From an uncultured Candidatus Actinomarina sp. (GTDB lineage Bacteria > Actinomycetota > Acidimicrobiia > Actinomarinales > Actinomarinaceae): a DNA stretch of 64,000 nt. The translations under genes and the position numbers were made by a program. Every line of letters begins with the position of its first letter. Positions within the stretch are counted from its first letter, which is position 1. Below, one piece after another: positions 10,753 through 30,120 of the stretch. Where the stretch lies: positions 238,844 to 302,843 of the forward strand of contig CACAND010000001.1 in NCBI GenBank assembly GCA_902533795.1, read 5' to 3'. Under the pieces are notes generated by a model. That model did not search any database and was not told the origin of the DNA. It saw only the letters and a list, made by a program, of their open reading frames with translations.

Positions 10753-11631
10753 ATGGGGGAAAAAATTTGCGTAATTGGCAGCTCTAACATTGACCAATTT
10801 TCATACGTTAATAAATTTCCTCAAGAGGGTGAAACTATAATTGGTAAATCTTTTAAAACTGGATTTGGTGGAAAAGGAGCCAACCAAGCCGTAATGGCAG
10901 GAATCCTTGGTTCTGATGTATACATTATTTCATGTTTAGGGAATGATATGTTTGCAGAATCAACAATTGATAACTTTAAAAAAAATAAAGTTAACACAGA
11001 ATATATACAAAGAGCTGATGTATCAAGTGGTGTCGCACCTATCTGGGTAGATTCAGACGGTGAAAATAAAATTGTTGTCATCCCAGGAGCAAATAATGAA
11101 ATCAATGCTGAAGATGCGATAAATTCAATAAAGAAAATTAAAAATATTTCTTATGTCGTTGGTCAAGCGGAGATACCAATGAAAGTAAATGATAAGGTAT
11201 TTCAGTATTCAAAAAGCAACAACATATTAACAATATTTAATCCAGCACCAGGAATGGAATTAGAAGATAAGTTCCTAGATAATGTAGATTGGCTTATACC
11301 AAACGAATATGAATTTGAAATTATCAGTGGGTTAAAACTGTCAGAAGAAAATATTTTAGATTTCTCTTCTAAAATTTATTCAAATTTAATTGTTACCCTT
11401 GGAAAACGGGGAGCTTTTCTAGTCGAAGATAATAATCTAATAGAATTTGGAGCACCTACTGTAAAAGTGGCAGATACGACTGGTGCTGGTGATGCTTTCG
11501 TTGGTGCATTCGTACATGGATTATCAGAGAATTTAACTCCAAAGGAATCAATAAAGCTAGCAATTGAAAAAGCGAGTTCTTCAGTGCAGAGAAAAGGTAC
11601 TCAGTCTTCTTATTCGTCCTCTTCAGAATAA
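10753..11631 (+). CDS. rbsK: Ribokinase (PfkB family)
   Basis: 292 aa. Has GFGGKGANQAV and C-terminal DTTGAGDAFVGAF motifs. Confidence 0.82.
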   Translation: MGEKICVIGSSNIDQFSYVNKFPQEGETIIGKSFKTGFGGKGANQAVMAGILGSDVYIISCLGNDMFAESTIDNFKKNKVNTEYIQRADVSSGVAPIWVDSDGENKIVVIPGANNEINAEDAINSIKKIKNISYVVGQAEIPMKVNDKVFQYSKSNNILTIFNPAPGMELEDKFLDNVDWLIPNEYEFEIISGLKLSEENILDFSSKIYSNLIVTLGKRGAFLVEDNNLIEFGAPTVKVADTTGAGDAFVGAFVHGLSENLTPKESIKLAIEKASSSVQRKGTQSSYSSSSE

Positions 11632-26659: not shown

Positions 26660-26803
26660 TATAAAACATATAAATTGTTTGAAAATAGAAGAAATACCTC
26701 AAATCAATTAAAATAGTATTAGGACTTCCTTTCGTGCTTTGAGCCACTGCTAAAAGTGTGATAAAACAAAAATAACAGCCACAGGGGAGTCTTTTTACTT
26801 TTT

Positions 26804-28027
26804 TTACGGTAGTTTTAGTATTTTTTTATACAAAACATAGTCACGATCTCCTAATTCATTAGGCGCAACAGCAGAAATAATTAAATAATCACCATTATTT
26901 AGCAAAATGCCAGTCGGATCTAAATAACTTACATCTAATGGCGATATAGGTACTCCTGTAAAGCTCCAGTCAAGACCATCATTTGAAGTAGCTACAAATA
27001 AACTCTGTGGGATTTTTGGTAATCCCTCTGGTGAAAATGAAAATATTGCTTTCCAATTGTTTTCTTCAGCTGTAAGTACTTCAAAGTCTACATATCCATT
27101 TTCAAATCGATATCCAGGATCTTTTGTAAAAGAAATTCCATCTGTAGTATTTGAAGTTGCACTAACTATTTTCTCACCCCTCATGCCAGAAGACTCATCA
27201 ACCCAGTAAATTCTTATTCGTCCGTCTGGTATAACTACAGCATCTGGCACACCCCAGGCAATACTGCCTCCATCAGATATTCCTAGTGAAATTTGATTTG
27301 TATAAGACAAACCATCTTTACTAAAAACAGCTGTCATAATTTCTTTTGATTTAGTGTTTGGGTTAAATTCAACAAAATACCCTCTTCTTACACCATCAGT
27401 CGTTTCAATAATAGTTAAGTCCTGAATTCTTTCAATTGCACCTTGGCGGATACAATTTAAATCATAATCGCATAAATCAACAGCTAAGCCATTCGCCGAC
27501 AAGCTTGAATAAAATAATCTAAGTGTTGTGTTATCTACAATTTCAAGATGTGGACTAACACCATCTTGATCAAGACTTTTTATATCTACTAACTTGGCAT
27601 TTTCTTCTACATTTTTTGGAGCATTCCCCTCAGGAAATGCTTGTACATTTGATTCACCTTCACCTGGCAATGGAGGTGGAGGAATATTACACTTATCAAA
27701 ATACTCTATTGCATCTTGTGAAAACGGTCTTCCTCCAAGTAAATCCAATTCTATTTGCCTCAGCATATCAAAAGTTGCGTTTTCATTGAGACATTTTTTT
27801 TCTTTCGTAGATAAGAAAGATAGAATTCCATCAGGAAACTCTTTTATAATATCTTCAACAGATCCCTCTTGATTTTCCTTATTCATAGGCTGATCATTTA
27901 ATATTGGTTCTTCAGTTGAAATTGTTTCGGTTAGTTGATCCGAAGATGTTGTTTCAACAGGGCTAGGGCTATTTCCGCATGCTACAAAAAAAATTGTTAT
28001 TAGTGATAGGTAGACATGCTGCTTCAC
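26804..28027 (-). CDS. Lipoprotein with Asp-box (BNR-like) beta-propeller-type C-terminal domain
   Basis: A GTG start at 28027 gives MKQHVYLSLITIFFVACGNS (lipobox). The ORF-track start at 28051 (TTG) would lie at the edge of the upstream terminator hairpin. Three SxDGxx(W/F/Y) Asp-boxes are present (SKDGLSY, TTDGISF, SNDGLDW). Confidence 0.45.
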   Translation of the reverse strand: MKQHVYLSLITIFFVACGNSPSPVETTSSDQLTETISTEEPILNDQPMNKENQEGSVEDIIKEFPDGILSFLSTKEKKCLNENATFDMLRQIELDLLGGRPFSQDAIEYFDKCNIPPPPLPGEGESNVQAFPEGNAPKNVEENAKLVDIKSLDQDGVSPHLEIVDNTTLRLFYSSLSANGLAVDLCDYDLNCIRQGAIERIQDLTIIETTDGVRRGYFVEFNPNTKSKEIMTAVFSKDGLSYTNQISLGISDGGSIAWGVPDAVVIPDGRIRIYWVDESSGMRGEKIVSATSNTTDGISFTKDPGYRFENGYVDFEVLTAEENNWKAIFSFSPEGLPKIPQSLFVATSNDGLDWSFTGVPISPLDVSYLDPTGILLNNGDYLIISAVAPNELGDRDYVLYKKILKLP

Positions 28028-28049
28028 AAGAAAAGTATACCAATAAAGC

Positions 28050-28086
28050 AAAAATCCCGATTGATCTTGCGACCCTTCGGGATTTT
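28050..28086 (-). terminator. Intrinsic terminator/attenuator hairpin of module copy A
   Basis: Minus-strand AAAAUCCCGA-AGGGUCGCAAGAUCAA-UCGGGAUUUUU. It ends ~23 nt upstream of the lipoprotein GTG. Confidence 0.6.
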
Positions 28087-28138
28087 CTGTTCTATCTCTT
28101 TTTCGGTCTTGCGACTTCTTTTTTGATAGTGTGTATTA

Positions 28139-28167
28139 AATTTACATACAAATCTATATTTTGGCAA
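28139..28167 (-). promoter_or_regulatory. Sigma70/SigA-like promoter of module copy A
   Basis: Minus-strand TTGCCA, a 17-nt spacer, then TAAATT. This is the same position as the promoter of copy B. Confidence 0.5.
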
Positions 28168-28211
28168 AAATTTTTAGATTGTTTTTTTCGCGAACTTTTA
28201 GCATTGAAACC

Positions 28212-29480
28212 CTATAAAACTTGAATTTTCACATCTTTTCTTGGATTTGGTATAGGCGCAGGATTTATTTTTAGGTCTTCATCTGTTGTAATTTGCTCGA
28301 AATTATCAACAAGTTTGTAAATTACGTTCTTAAACAAATAACTAGCAAAAAACTTTCCAAGACATGTGTGAGCACCGCCAGCAAAAGGAAAATAAGCTTC
28401 ATGCGTTACGTTTGGATCTTCAAATCTTGCAGGATTAAAGTTTATTGGATCATCCCAATATCTTTTATCATTGTGTAATACCAGAGGACCAGCAGCGATG
28501 TATGTATCTTTGGGTATTTCATAACCCTCAAGTTCTGTGTCATTAACAACCAGTCTTGGAGAGAAAGGAACTGGGGGATATTTTCTTATTGCCTCGTTAA
28601 ATAACGCTTCTCCAATAATTCCATTTTTCAGATCAGATATATCTATTTTTGACAAGTTAGAAGACTCTAGTTTGACTTTATTTTGATAATCTATATCACG
28701 AGCAAGAAAATGGATTGATGAAGTTAAAGTGCTTGTTGTTGTGTCGTGTGCAGCAAGAAGTAAAAATATCATATGTTCAGCAATTTCAAAATTTGTTAGT
28801 CCTGCCTCCTCCTTATTTGTTTTTACTAAATCAGAAAACAATGTTTCCTTTGAGAGGTCAATGCTACTTGATTTATCTTGAAAATATTCCAGCAACTCTT
28901 CTCGGGCCTTTAAACCTTTTTTCATTCTTGTAAGTGGATAAGGATTCCTTACAATTGTTGTCGCAGGTTTGATTGAATTTATAAATAGCTGATTTAGATA
29001 ACTCAATTTTGAATCGTCAACTTCATCAAAAAATAATTCGACAGCAACATTGAACATAAGTTGTTTTATTGATTTGTAAAGATAAAATTCTTTCTTTTGT
29101 TTTACTTCTTCTATCCAAGAATTTATTCTTGGCTGAATAATATGCAAATATTTTTCTAATGCATCTCTTCTAAATGAATTCTGTAACAGTGATCTGTGAT
29201 ACTTATGATCGTCAAAATCTCTGAGCATTAAACCATTTTCAAAAGTTGGACCAATAGAAAACTCCCACCCATGTTTCGATGAAAAATTGTCGTCAGGATC
29301 CAAAAAGATTTTTTTTGTGGCAGAGGGCGTCAAAAACAAAAGTACATCTTCATTTAATATATTTAGCTCAAATACATCTCCTTTTGATTCCTGAAGCCTT
29401 TGTATTAAGGAAAGTGCATCATAATTAAATTGTATTGAGTGACCTACTATTGGTGGGCTTCCAGCCACTGGTGCTTTCAT
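28212..29480 (-). CDS. Cytochrome P450
   Basis: 422 aa. Has LLAAHDTT (I-helix), EAIR (ExxR) and the heme loop FPFAGGAHTCLGKFFA. Confidence 0.88.
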   Translation of the reverse strand: MKAPVAGSPPIVGHSIQFNYDALSLIQRLQESKGDVFELNILNEDVLLFLTPSATKKIFLDPDDNFSSKHGWEFSIGPTFENGLMLRDFDDHKYHRSLLQNSFRRDALEKYLHIIQPRINSWIEEVKQKKEFYLYKSIKQLMFNVAVELFFDEVDDSKLSYLNQLFINSIKPATTIVRNPYPLTRMKKGLKAREELLEYFQDKSSSIDLSKETLFSDLVKTNKEEAGLTNFEIAEHMIFLLLAAHDTTTSTLTSSIHFLARDIDYQNKVKLESSNLSKIDISDLKNGIIGEALFNEAIRKYPPVPFSPRLVVNDTELEGYEIPKDTYIAAGPLVLHNDKRYWDDPINFNPARFEDPNVTHEAYFPFAGGAHTCLGKFFASYLFKNVIYKLVDNFEQITTDEDLKINPAPIPNPRKDVKIQVL

Positions 29481-29517
29481 AGTTTAATTTTAGATTGATA
29501 AATTGAAGGTACAAAGC

Positions 29518-29554
29518 AAAAATCCCGATTGATCTTGCGACCCTTCGGGATTTT
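29518..29554 (-). terminator. Intrinsic terminator/attenuator hairpin of module copy B
   Basis: Identical hairpin to copy A plus a U-tract. It ends ~37 nt upstream of the P450 ATG. Confidence 0.6.
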
Positions 29555-29606
29555 CTGTTCTATCTTCTTTTCCATCTTGCGATTTCTTTTCCGATAGTGT
29601 TCTATA

Positions 29607-29635
29607 AATATACGGCAGTTTTGGTTTATACGCAA
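29607..29635 (-). promoter_or_regulatory. Sigma70/SigA-like promoter of module copy B
   Basis: Minus-strand TTGCGT, a 17-nt spacer, then TATATT. Confidence 0.5.
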
Positions 29636-29664
29636 GAAAATTACTAATGTATTTTTCGCGAACT

Positions 29665-30120
29665 TTATGGGCTATTTTCTCTTCTTATTTCACTCAAAAT
29701 AAGATTTAGTTCGTTATTTTCCAAATGTTTTGAAATGACATTATAAGAACTATCTTGGAATACGAAGGTAAGAGTGAAGTCTTCACTTTCTGTTATTTCG
29801 ATAATCTCATTGATGGGTTTGATTACAGATAATATTTTTTGTTTAGTTTTTATCGCAATTTTCCCATTTTTAACTTCAATAACGGGTTGAAAAAGATTTT
29901 GCAGGGAAATAACTATTTGAAATATCCCAAAAAATAAAATTATAAAATATAAGCTTTCTTCTCTTGCATTGGAACCAAACTCCTCAAGATCAAAATATTG
30001 TTTTAATAGCTCCCTTAATGGCCCTTCAAGAATATTGTCTAATGCTGAATATGACAGGAATACTCCACTCAAAAATTGTGGTACGAAGATTTTTTTATAC
30101 CTAAAAAGTTTTTTTTCCAT
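29665..30120 (-). CDS. Hypothetical membrane protein
   Basis: 151 aa with two hydrophobic segments. No recognisable domain. Confidence 0.35.
   Translation of the reverse strand: MEKKLFRYKKIFVPQFLSGVFLSYSALDNILEGPLRELLKQYFDLEEFGSNAREESLYFIILFFGIFQIVISLQNLFQPVIEVKNGKIAIKTKQKILSVIKPINEIIEITESEDFTLTFVFQDSSYNVISKHLENNELNLILSEIRRENSP

What the first reader, a model, noticed from the sequence alone, without database searches (positions are those of the whole stretch)
28045..29666. Duplicated palindrome-promoter-structured leader-terminator module upstream of a cytochrome P450 and an Asp-box lipoprotein: candidate new cis-regulatory RNA or sRNA
Two direct copies of a ~154-nt element lie on the coding (minus) strand, at 28045-28198 and 29513-29666. 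Each sits immediately upstream of a gene: the lipoprotein 26804..28027 and the P450 28212..29480.

Read 5' to 3' on the minus strand, both copies contain, at matching positions:
1. AAAGTTCGCGAAAAA, with the perfect palindrome TTCGCGAA.
2. About 20 nt later, a good sigma70-type promoter: TTGCCA-17-TAAATT in copy A and TTGCGT-17-TATATT in copy B.
3. An ~88-nt transcript that folds into two hairpins.

Hairpin 1 is closed by CUAUC/GAUAG and has A-rich internal loops. Its apical mini-stem carries a GNRA tetraloop: GUC-GCAA-GAC in copy A and AUC-GCAA-GAU in copy B. That difference is a compensatory G-C to A-U change.

Hairpin 2 is AAAAUCCCGA...UCGGGAUUUUU, i.e. an intrinsic terminator. Its apex carries the same UCGCAAGA mini-hairpin.

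The terminator half (53 nt) is 100% identical between copies, while the promoter-proximal half has diverged. Neither downstream gene has a recognisable Shine-Dalgarno sequence, although most other genes here have AGGAG-like sites. A conserved promoter followed by a structured leader ending in a terminator 23-37 nt before the start codon is the layout of a riboswitch, attenuator or protein-binding leader, or of a ~90-nt sRNA. I do not recognise the fold as any named riboswitch class.
Basis: partly seen in the sequence, partly recalled or inferred. Interest (0 to 1): 0.8.

Follow-up and report, generated by a model that had tools for sequence, protein, structure and literature searches.

The report
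Sibling small-RNA genes flanking a P450
The two repeats are paralogous copies of an apparently undescribed ~85-nt small-RNA gene (own promoter, two hairpins, terminator) found 2-5 times in every Candidatus Actinomarina genome examined; it does not look like a leader of the neighbouring genes, and its target is unknown.

Summary
The duplication is real: 28045-28198 and 29513-29666 (minus strand), 1468 nt apart, with the 3' 53 nt identical. It is not private to this locus. A pattern scan and a covariance model found about 100 copies in about 60 Ca. Actinomarina/OCS155 genome loci, 2-5 per genome, at a few syntenic positions.

Each copy has a promoter-like footprint: an invariant TCGCGAAAAA box, CTTGC, a variable 17-nt spacer, then TANNNT. 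A conserved 83-88-nt two-hairpin RNA follows and ends in a bidirectional terminator. Structure is supported by five compensatory pairs, GNRA loops (GCAA/GAAA/GUAA) and sense-strand-only G.U changes.

The leader/riboswitch reading fails on four counts:
- Copy A follows the P450 whether or not the lipoprotein is present.
- Downstream genes differ between loci (P450, lipoprotein, 5'-3' exonuclease, endonuclease IV, convergent GNAT).
- These genes carry their own -10 box 6-7 nt before the start codon, so they are leaderless, which explains the missing SD.
- No antiterminator exists.

No Rfam family matches. A 2026 preprint only notes uncharacterised repeats of median 152 bp.

Best reading: a new family of sibling small-RNA genes. 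Expression and function are untested.

The parts
28184..28193 (-). Copy A: invariant upstream box TCGCGAAAAA (about -61 to -52 from the predicted start)
   Evidence: Read. The box occurs 132 times in 693 kb of Actinomarina DNA; 131 lie upstream of an element and 1 belongs to a truncated element. Invariant in the footprint.
28162..28167 (-). Copy A: -35-like TTGCCA
   Evidence: (C)TTGC is conserved in all copies.
28139..28144 (-). Copy A: -10 box TAAATT (TANNNT)
   Evidence: Every variant in relatives keeps TANNNT, while the 17-nt spacer varies.
28045..28132 (-). Copy A: predicted small RNA, start about 28132, end 28050-28045 (83-88 nt)
   Evidence: Conservation begins about 7 nt after the -10 box and stops at the end of the T-tract. 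CM score 114.7 bits.
28092..28129 (-). Copy A hairpin 1: CUAUC/GAUAG base, purine-rich middle, GUC-GCAA-GAC tip
   Evidence: Fold. Compensatory changes at the base and tip pairs, and a GNRA loop seen as GCAA/GAAA/GUAA.
28050..28087 (-). Copy A hairpin 2: intrinsic terminator with A-tract and U-tract (bidirectional) and GGUC-GCAA-GAUC tip
   Evidence: Fold. Compensatory changes in pattern-independent copies. Abuts the stop of a convergent GNAT gene in other genomes.
29652..29661 (-). Copy B: TCGCGAAAAA box
29630..29635 (-). Copy B: -35-like TTGCGT
29607..29612 (-). Copy B: -10 box TATATT
29513..29600 (-). Copy B: predicted small RNA, start about 29600
   Evidence: CM score 116.5 bits; fold.
29560..29597 (-). 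Copy B hairpin 1 (AUC-GCAA-GAU tip)
29518..29555 (-). Copy B hairpin 2 / terminator
29487..29492 (-). Own -10 box (TAAAAT) of the leaderless P450 gene, 6 nt before ATG 29480. Not part of the RNA; it delimits the unit.
   Evidence: conserved in P450 orthologues.
28034..28042 (-). Own extended -10 box (TGGTATACT) of the leaderless lipoprotein gene, 6 nt before GTG 28027
   Evidence: present in 9 of 9 orthologous arrangements.
28212..29480 (-). Cytochrome P450 gene lying between the two RNA genes
   Evidence: Pfam PF00067, E = 1.6e-53. Absent in some genomes, where the two RNA genes are in tandem 183-215 nt apart.

Best explanation
Each copy is a self-contained gene for a small non-coding RNA, one member of a sibling family of 2-5 paralogues per Ca. 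Actinomarina genome.

How it works:
1. An element-specific box (TCGCGAAAAA, about -61 to -52) and an A/T-rich stretch precede a housekeeping-type promoter (CTTGC, 17 nt, TANNNT).
2. Transcription starts about 7 nt after the -10 box, 1-4 nt before hairpin 1.
3. It stops at hairpin 2, an intrinsic terminator flanked by A- and U-tracts. This terminator also ends the upstream gene's transcript and, in other loci, that of a convergent gene.
4. The 83-88-nt product has two hairpins that both end in the same UCGNAAGA tip (a GNRA tetraloop). Hairpin 1 is a long irregular, purine-rich helix.

The P450 and the lipoprotein are separate leaderless transcripts, started from their own -10 boxes squeezed between the terminator and the start codon.

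Shown here: the family, its copy number, the conservation footprint, the structure support, and the independence from any one downstream gene.
Inferred: that the promoter fires and that the RNA acts in trans.

My committed guess for the mode of action is that the RNA binds or titrates a protein through its duplicated GNRA-capped tips. The reason is that almost every nucleotide is conserved, stems included, and no conserved seed or target was found. Base-pairing through the purine-rich single strands is nearly as likely. The TCGCGAAAAA box would be the site of a dedicated regulator or an UP-like element.
For: - Family and copy number: 93 pattern hits, of which about 62 loci are low-GC Actinomarina/OCS155. 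The CM finds 97 copies in 60 sources, including about 10 that lack the search pattern. Several loci come from the same genome.
- Promoter-shaped footprint, with conservation ending at the T-tract.
- The box is exclusive to the elements, 132 of 132 occurrences.
- Autonomy: type-C copies sit 37-135 nt from a divergent GNAT gene, so no co-oriented upstream transcript can supply them.
- Structure: 99.5% of cells paired versus 31-53% in slid registers; 5 pairs with compensatory changes (0 of 500 shuffles reach this); all one-sided changes give G.U. The MAFFT-based count agrees. GNRA variants are seen. The sense strand folds better than the antisense strand.
- Not a leader: the lipoprotein is absent behind copy A in relatives; neighbours are diverse; downstream genes have leaderless -10 boxes (15 of 15 exonuclease, 9 of 9 lipoprotein, most P450, 8 of 8 endonuclease IV), against a 28% background in the window; there is no antiterminator.
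- No Rfam family and no conserved ORF on either strand.
- Context from papers: 97% coding density, 2-3 bp median spacer and 2 sigma factors (PMC7771536); repeats of median 152 bp reported but uncharacterised (bioRxiv 10.64898/2026.04.03.716425).
Against: - There are no expression data of any kind. The promoter and the RNA ends are inferred from conservation only.
- Covariation rests on few pairs and few independent events. Hairpin 2 is almost invariant, partly because the genome scan required its apex, and possibly because paralogues homogenise by gene conversion.
- Hairpin 1 is thermodynamically weak. Without the terminator the fold is only -9 to -12 kcal/mol, z = -1.1 to -1.9.
- The tight, conserved spacing (18-36 nt) to co-oriented downstream genes such as the 5'-3' exonuclease could still reflect a cis effect, for example promoter occlusion, read-through, or hand-over of polymerase.
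- No seed, target or partner protein was identified.
Confidence: 0.65

Rival explanations
1. Cis-acting 5' leader (riboswitch, attenuator or protein-dependent antitermination). The element's promoter drives the downstream gene, and hairpin 2 is a conditional terminator.
For: - A promoter followed by a structured RNA and a terminator lies 18-36 nt before co-oriented genes in many loci: P450, lipoprotein, 5'-3' exonuclease.
- The linkage to the exonuclease survives changes of the upstream gene.
Against: - Copy A stays put when the lipoprotein is absent or replaced.
- Downstream partners are functionally unrelated and include a convergent gene.
- Tandem copies each keep their own promoter.
- Downstream genes have their own -10 box at leaderless distance.
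- No antiterminator pairing exists in any subtype.
- No riboswitch family matches.
Confidence: 0.12
2. A structured terminator or insulator module whose RNA product has no function of its own. It ends upstream transcripts, works in both directions, and perhaps feeds or blocks RNA polymerase at the weak leaderless promoter just downstream.
For: - The element starts between 24 nt before and 14 nt after the stop of a co-oriented gene in nearly all loci.
- Hairpin 2 is symmetric (A-tract and U-tract) and abuts convergent genes at 0 nt.
- Termination occurs inside the downstream promoter region.
Against: - A terminator needs neither a conserved promoter with an exclusive upstream box nor hairpin 1 with its covarying stem and GNRA loop.
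- Spending 150 nt on this is costly in a genome with 2-3 bp median spacers, where other genes manage without it.
Confidence: 0.12
3. A DNA-level repeat: a REP/MITE-like element, or a recombination site that brackets the P450 as a mobile cassette.
For: - Direct repeats flank a gene that is present in some genomes and absent in others.
- Assemblies break at the repeats.
- A linker polymorphism is mostly concordant between the two copies, which hints at gene conversion.
- Synteny changes occur at element borders.
Against: - Where the P450 is absent, both copies remain, in tandem.
- Copies sit at conserved syntenic positions and in low number.
- There are no terminal inverted repeats. G.U-only one-sided changes and GNRA loops point to selection on one RNA strand.
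- Nothing was found in viral contigs.
Confidence: 0.05
4. A type I toxin-antitoxin-like pair, or a small protein gene, encoded on either strand of the element.
For: - An 81-aa ORF (27979-28224, + strand) overlaps copy A.
- A 21-22-aa hydrophobic antisense ORF recurs in many copies.
Against: - The ORFs change frame and length between subtypes.
- They start with TTG inside a hairpin and lack a promoter.
- The T-rich antisense strand is stop-poor by composition.
Confidence: 0.02

Closest known systems
Sibling (multi-copy) trans-acting sRNAs with a dedicated upstream regulator site: Qrr1-5 (Vibrio, LuxO/sigma-54), csRNAs (Streptococcus, CiaR repeat), LhrC1-5 (Listeria, LisR). Comparison from my own knowledge.
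   Same: Several paralogous ~80-150-nt RNA genes per genome. Each has its own promoter preceded by a conserved family-specific box and ends in an intrinsic terminator. The RNA bodies are highly similar and the promoter spacers are more diverged.
   Different: There is no sequence or Rfam relationship. The regulator is unknown. No C/U-rich seed or anti-SD region exists; the RNA is purine-rich with GNRA-capped hairpins. The host is an actinobacterium, a phylum that generally lacks Hfq (general knowledge, not checked for Actinomarina).
6C RNA (Rfam RF01066), the widespread actinobacterial two-hairpin sRNA linked to DNA-damage and cell-division phenotypes. Comparison from my own knowledge.
   Same: Actinobacterial, about 80-100 nt, two hairpins plus a terminator. 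Here several copies neighbour DNA-repair genes: 5'-3' exonuclease, endonuclease IV, AlkD-like.
   Different: 6C is defined by C-rich loops, whereas these loops are GNRA tetraloops. cmscan does not match RF01066 even at E <= 10. As far as I know 6C is usually a single-copy gene.
Protein-titrating sRNAs with repeated hairpin motifs (CsrB/RsmZ)
   Same: A short hairpin-tip motif (UCGNAAGA) is repeated within the RNA and multiplied further by gene copies. Sequence conservation extends into the stems.
   Different: There are no GGA motifs, only two tips per RNA, and no known partner. This is an analogy of mechanism only.
Riboswitches and transcription attenuators
   Same: Linear order of promoter, structured RNA and terminator close to a start codon.
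   Different: There is no antiterminator, no common downstream gene or pathway, the downstream genes have their own promoters, and no Rfam match exists.
REP/BIME extragenic palindromes
   Same: A ~36-nt imperfect palindrome at gene ends that can terminate or stabilise transcripts; it is repeated in the genome.
   Different: Only 2-5 copies at syntenic sites, always with a promoter and a second hairpin. The changes seen are strand-specific at RNA level.

Membership tests
Any Rfam 15 family (riboswitches, leaders, sRNAs including 6C, 6S, SRP) | Covariance-model score at or above the family's gathering threshold | tested here: not met
   There are 0 hits at gathering in the 64-kb window. The best sub-threshold hits (rimP leader at 24.6-25 bits versus 47 needed) align only to the generic terminator stem.
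Riboswitch / transcription attenuator | Lies in the 5' UTR of the regulated mRNA, so the downstream gene has no promoter of its own | tested here: not met
   TANNNT sits 6-7 nt before the start codon of the P450, lipoprotein, exonuclease and endonuclease IV genes. The window background is 28%. This is sequence inference, not TSS mapping.
Riboswitch / transcription attenuator | Mutually exclusive terminator and antiterminator structures | tested here: not met
   When the 3' half of the terminator is removed, its 5' half stays unpaired in all three subtypes.
Riboswitch / transcription attenuator | Consistent association with one gene family or pathway | tested here: not met
   Downstream partners are P450, lipoprotein, 5'-3' exonuclease, endonuclease IV, ADH and a convergent GNAT. 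Copy A persists without the lipoprotein.
Sibling trans-acting sRNA genes | Own promoter and own intrinsic terminator | tested here: met
   Promoter-shaped conservation footprint. Some copies lie behind a divergent gene. The terminator hairpin with U-tract folds at about -25 to -30 kcal/mol for the whole RNA. Expression itself was not tested.
Sibling trans-acting sRNA genes | Several paralogous copies per genome | tested here: met
   There are 2-5 copies per assembly. Example: SD4487 has L049 x1, L091 x2 and L102 x2.
Sibling trans-acting sRNA genes | Family-specific regulator site upstream of the promoter | tested here: inconclusive
   TCGCGAAAAA is invariant and exclusive to the elements. Whether it binds a regulator or acts as an UP-like element is unknown.
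Sibling trans-acting sRNA genes | Conserved single-stranded seed complementary to target mRNAs | tested here: inconclusive
   Only chance-level 13-15-nt complementarity was found in about 690 kb of available DNA. Whole genomes were not available.
Sibling trans-acting sRNA genes | Detectable discrete transcript | not testable with these tools
   No transcriptome data could be reached. The one marine dRNA-seq paper found says nothing on Actinomarina RNAs.
6C RNA | Two hairpins with C-rich loops | tested here: not met
   The loops are GCAA, GAAA or GUAA.
REP / MITE-like repeat | Many dispersed copies, terminal inverted repeats or an associated transposase, no fixed synteny | tested here: not met
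   Low copy number at recurrent syntenic positions. An associated transposase was not searched for genome-wide.

The most novel reading that the evidence does not exclude
The family is the output arm of a dedicated regulator-to-sibling-sRNA circuit. The TCGCGAAAAA box would be used only by these genes. The circuit would serve as a main global switch in an organism with two sigma factors and almost no non-coding DNA. It may be tied to DNA damage or UV exposure at the sea surface, given the recurrent neighbours 5'-3' exonuclease, endonuclease IV and an AlkD-like gene. The same repeats would also act as the recombination substrates behind P450 gain or loss and local gene-order shuffling.
Probability: 0.2. 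Interest if true: 0.7.

Novelty: new member of a known kind. Interest (0 to 1): 0.45.

Why it matters
Ca. Actinomarina is among the smallest and most abundant free-living marine bacteria. Its genome is about 1.1 Mb, 97% coding, with a median intergenic spacer of 2-3 bp and two sigma factors (PMC7771536). In that setting, a 150-nt non-coding unit kept in 2-5 copies across the genus is a large investment, and it is probably one of the organism's few dedicated regulators.

- It gives a concrete, mappable candidate for metatranscriptome work.
- It plausibly accounts for the ~152-bp intragenomic repeats reported without explanation in complete genomes, and for why short-read assemblies break around the P450.
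- The leaderless-promoter result also corrects how genes in this lineage should be annotated: absence of an SD is normal here.

Tried and rejected
- **Rfam at gathering and at E <= 10**, on both window copies and on a tandem class-1/type-C pair: only terminator-driven noise.
- **Generic promoter/terminator scan:** uninformative in AT-rich DNA. There were fewer promoter-like hits than in shuffles, and the terminator was missed because of its 2x2 internal loop.
- **TTCGCGAA as an operator palindrome:** rejected, since only TCGCGA plus A5 is conserved. By recollection it does not fit the actinobacterial LexA box or the RecA-NDp motif; I did not test this.
- **Reading the A-rich 'internal loops' of hairpin 1 as covarying pairs:** U-for-G changes do create A-U pairs. 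I discount this, because in a column that is nearly all A, any U will pair by chance.
- **Small ORFs, sense or antisense (type I TA idea):** not conserved.
- **Viral contigs:** one GC-rich chance hit with no CM match.
- **Complementary target sites in about 690 kb of Actinomarina DNA:** nothing above chance.
- **Literature:** no description of an Actinomarina sRNA.
- **Second conserved motif upstream of endonuclease IV:** no Rfam hit and no convincing consensus fold.
- **Metagenome scan:** not used. Any usable pattern would return near-identical abundant sequences or thousands of chance hits.
Full report
**1. The observation**

Reading 26700-29900 on the minus strand and running the repeat finder confirm two direct copies, A at 28045-28198 and B at 29513-29666, exactly 1468 nt apart. 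They share 101 nt at 88% identity plus 35 nt at 77%. Pairwise alignment shows an unbroken identical run of 53 nt at the 3' end. The 36-nt core of the second hairpin occurs only at these two sites in 64 kb, with none expected by chance.

The energies are -26.1 and -26.5 kcal/mol, z = -4.6 and -4.2, and the sense strand folds better than the antisense strand.

**2. Organism and the same locus elsewhere**

The DNA is about 33% G+C. The P450 (Pfam PF00067) has hundreds of 89-99% identical relatives in marine metagenomes and single-cell genomes annotated as Acidimicrobiaceae or Ca. Actinomarina. Most contigs carrying it are 1.4-1.6 kb long, about the repeat spacing, which is what an assembler produces when it breaks at both repeats.

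On the long contigs (L002-L021) both copies again flank the P450. Orthologous A copies group with A, and B copies with B, so the duplication predates these lineages. In most of these relatives the 'lipoprotein' is absent. Copy A is followed by about 170 nt and then the AP-endonuclease-2 (endonuclease IV-like) gene, and L013 has other genes there. Copy A therefore belongs to the position after the P450, not to the lipoprotein.

**3. A genus-wide, multi-copy family**

One scan of the species-representative genome collection used a pattern fixing only the tip of hairpin 2 and 3 bp of its stem. It gave 93 loci.
- About 62 loci are low-GC Ca. Actinomarina, OCS155 or Actinomarinales genomes and carry the whole element.
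- The remainder are GC-rich chance hits without it.

A covariance model built from 38 diverse copies finds only the two known copies in the window. Across 60 sources it finds 97 copies, including about 10 that do not match the search pattern.

Individual assemblies hold 2-5 copies. Examples: SD4487 has L049 x1, L091 x2 and L102 x2; BS30m-G3 has L034 x1 and L070 x3; AGTU_105_bin_18 has L027 x2, L063 and L092. Single-cell genomes are incomplete, so these are lower bounds.

**4. Where the copies sit**

| Locus | Arrangement |
|---|---|
| I | 150-aa hypothetical gene -> copy -> P450 -> copy -> lipoprotein or endonuclease IV |
| I' (no P450) | the two copies in tandem, 183-215 nt apart; the second is a third subtype ('C') |
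| II | metK, a metX-like gene or a Cys/Met PLP enzyme -> copy -> 5'-3' exonuclease, 21-36 nt downstream (15 genomes) |
| III | small membrane protein -> copy, abutting a convergent GNAT acetyltransferase at 0 nt |

In some genomes a type-C copy lies 37-135 nt from a divergent GNAT start. No co-oriented upstream transcript could supply that copy.

**5. Anatomy of the unit**

I aligned 113 unique units anchored on the upstream box. The conservation profile is:

| Segment | Conservation |
|---|---|
| Upstream of the box | none |
| TCGCGAAAAA | invariant |
| (C)TTGC | conserved |
| 17-nt spacer | variable |
| TANNNT (TATATT, TAAATT, TAGATT, TACATT, TATTTT) | conserved |
| From about 7 nt after the -10 box to the last T of the terminator | strongly conserved |
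| Beyond the T-tract | abrupt fall to background |

This is the footprint of a promoter followed by an RNA gene. TCGCGAAAAA, however, occurs 132 times in 693 kb of Actinomarina DNA. All occurrences belong to elements, one of them an element cut by a locus end. The predicted RNA is 83-88 nt (A: about 28132 to 28050-28045; B: about 29600 to 29518-29513).

**6. Structure support**

*MAFFT alignment, 38 sequences.* The tip pair of hairpin 1 is A-U in 22 sequences and G-C in 16. The innermost pair of its base stem is C-G in 26 and U-A in 5.

*Model-fitted alignment, 66 distinct sequences.*

| Measure | Proposed register | Controls |
|---|---|---|
| Cells paired | 99.5% | 31-53% in slid registers |
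| Pairs with compensatory changes | 5 | matched by 0 of 500 shuffles |
| Covariation score | 0.101 | at most 0.041 in slid registers |

The compensatory changes include two in hairpin 2, and both come from copies found independently of the search pattern:
- L108: CCCGG...CUGGG
- L102: AGUC-GAAA-GAUU

Both tetraloops vary only at position 2 (GCAA, GAAA, GUAA), the GNRA signature. All one-sided changes give G.U pairs, which would be A.C mismatches on the other strand. This points to an RNA transcribed from the strand that reads as minus in the window.

Caveats:
- The number of independent events is small.
- Hairpin 2 is almost invariant.
- The second alignment leans towards the model.
- The apparent A.G to A-U 'covariation' inside the purine-rich middle of hairpin 1 is not compelling statistically.

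**7. Why it is not a leader**

Four results argue against a leader, beyond the variable and unrelated downstream genes.
- **Own promoters.** The genes behind the element have a TANNNT box ending 6 nt (sometimes 7) before the start codon and no SD. This holds for 15 of 15 exonuclease genes, 9 of 9 lipoproteins at 18 nt (TGGTATACT, an extended -10 box), most P450s, and 8 of 8 endonuclease IV genes. In the window these are TAAAAT (29492-29487) before ATG 29480, and TGGTATACT (28042-28034) before GTG 28027. From established work on mycobacteria (PMC3898074 and PMC4633059, listed; content from my own knowledge), this is the layout of actinobacterial leaderless mRNAs.
- **Window background.** In the window, 18 of 65 ORFs have this layout and only 14 of 65 have an SD-like site. 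The missing SD is therefore ordinary here.
- **No antiterminator.** With the 3' half of the terminator removed, its 5' half pairs with nothing in any subtype.
- **Tandem copies.** Tandem copies each keep a full promoter.

**8. Other readings tested**
- No Rfam family matches.
- There are no conserved ORFs on either strand. The recurring 21-22-aa antisense ORF changes frame and length between subtypes.
- There are no copies in viral contigs.
- No conserved complementary site exists in the DNA available.
- A polymorphic linker base is the same in both P450-flanking copies in most genomes: U/U in 24 loci, C/C in 3, mixed C/U in 1. This hints at gene conversion and would help explain the identical 3' halves, but it amounts to one clade-level event.

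**9. Literature**

Full-text searches found no description of an Actinomarina sRNA.
- The 2020 genome paper gives the context: 97% coding density, a median spacer of 2-3 bp, two sigma factors (PMC7771536).
- The 2026 preprint on 84 complete genomes reports that intragenomic repeats are scarce, 'most genomes have only 2', with median length 152 bp. It does not characterise them (bioRxiv 10.64898/2026.04.03.716425). That length matches this unit. The identity of those repeats with this element is my inference.

**10. Verdict**

The two copies are paralogous, autonomous small-RNA genes of a genus-wide sibling family, and they happen to bracket the P450. I put about 0.65 on this, about 0.12 on a cis leader, about 0.12 on a terminator or insulator module without RNA function, and the remaining ~0.1 on DNA-level, coding or unforeseen explanations.

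The mode of action is not established. I lean towards protein binding through the duplicated GNRA tips. That part, and the role of the TCGCGAAAAA box, are inferences. Nothing here shows expression.

In kind it resembles Qrr, csRNA or LhrC-type sibling sRNAs, but it belongs to no known family. It is a new member of a known kind, of moderate interest, raised somewhat by the extreme streamlining and ecological abundance of the host.

Noticed in passing
window 26715-26800 (minus strand), between the lipoprotein stop (26804) and the endonuclease IV-like gene start (26659); also L002 about 11457-11540, and L045, L030, L102 and others: There is a second conserved non-coding stretch of about 60-70 nt (..AAAAGACUCCCYUGUGGCUGU..UUUUGUUUUAUC..AGUGGCUCAAAGCACGAAAGGAAGUC..). 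It always lies shortly downstream of the class A/C RNA gene and upstream of the endonuclease IV gene or a lipoprotein gene. It has no Rfam hit and only a weak consensus fold.
   Followed up: partly
whole window: Leaderless gene starts are common. 18 of 65 ORFs have TANNNT 6-7 nt before the start codon, and only 14 of 65 have an SD-like site, mostly in the ribosomal-protein operon at about 37.6-41.4 kb.
   Followed up: partly
window 26804-28027 versus L002-L012, L013, L036: The lipoprotein gene behind copy A is a strain-variable insert. It is absent in many close relatives, is replaced by other genes in L013, and related lipoproteins of 400-860 aa sit at a different offset (about 168 nt) in others. 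Pfam and PDB sequence searches give it no family.
   Followed up: partly
L023, L050, L083, L088, L109, L113 versus the window: The P450 is present in some genomes and absent in others. Where it is missing, the two RNA genes are in tandem 183-215 nt apart. Most public contigs with this P450 are 1.4-1.6 kb, i.e. assemblies break at the two repeats.
   Followed up: partly
L022, L028, L033, L049, L086, L104 and others (exonuclease locus); L027, L030, L045, L070 (GNAT locus): Gene-order changes between species fall at the borders of the RNA genes. The exonuclease-linked copy is preceded by metK, a metX-like gene or a Cys/Met PLP enzyme. The GNAT-abutting copy is preceded by either of two different small membrane-protein genes. 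These copies could be recombination substrates, contrary to the view that internal repeats play no part in rearrangement.
   Followed up: no
L024, L065, L074, L078, L085, L103, L112 (upstream of the B-type copy): In one clade an AlkD-like DNA-alkylation-repair gene replaces the 150-aa hypothetical gene upstream of the copy. Its last 24 nt overlap the TCGCGAAAAA box (protein ends ..KSSRKIN), so the box is conserved even inside coding sequence.
   Followed up: no
window 29665-30120 (minus strand): The 151-aa gene that always precedes a class-1 copy has no Pfam family, one predicted hydrophobic segment (by eye) and a leaderless-type start. Its stop codon abuts or overlaps the first bases of the element.
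   Followed up: no
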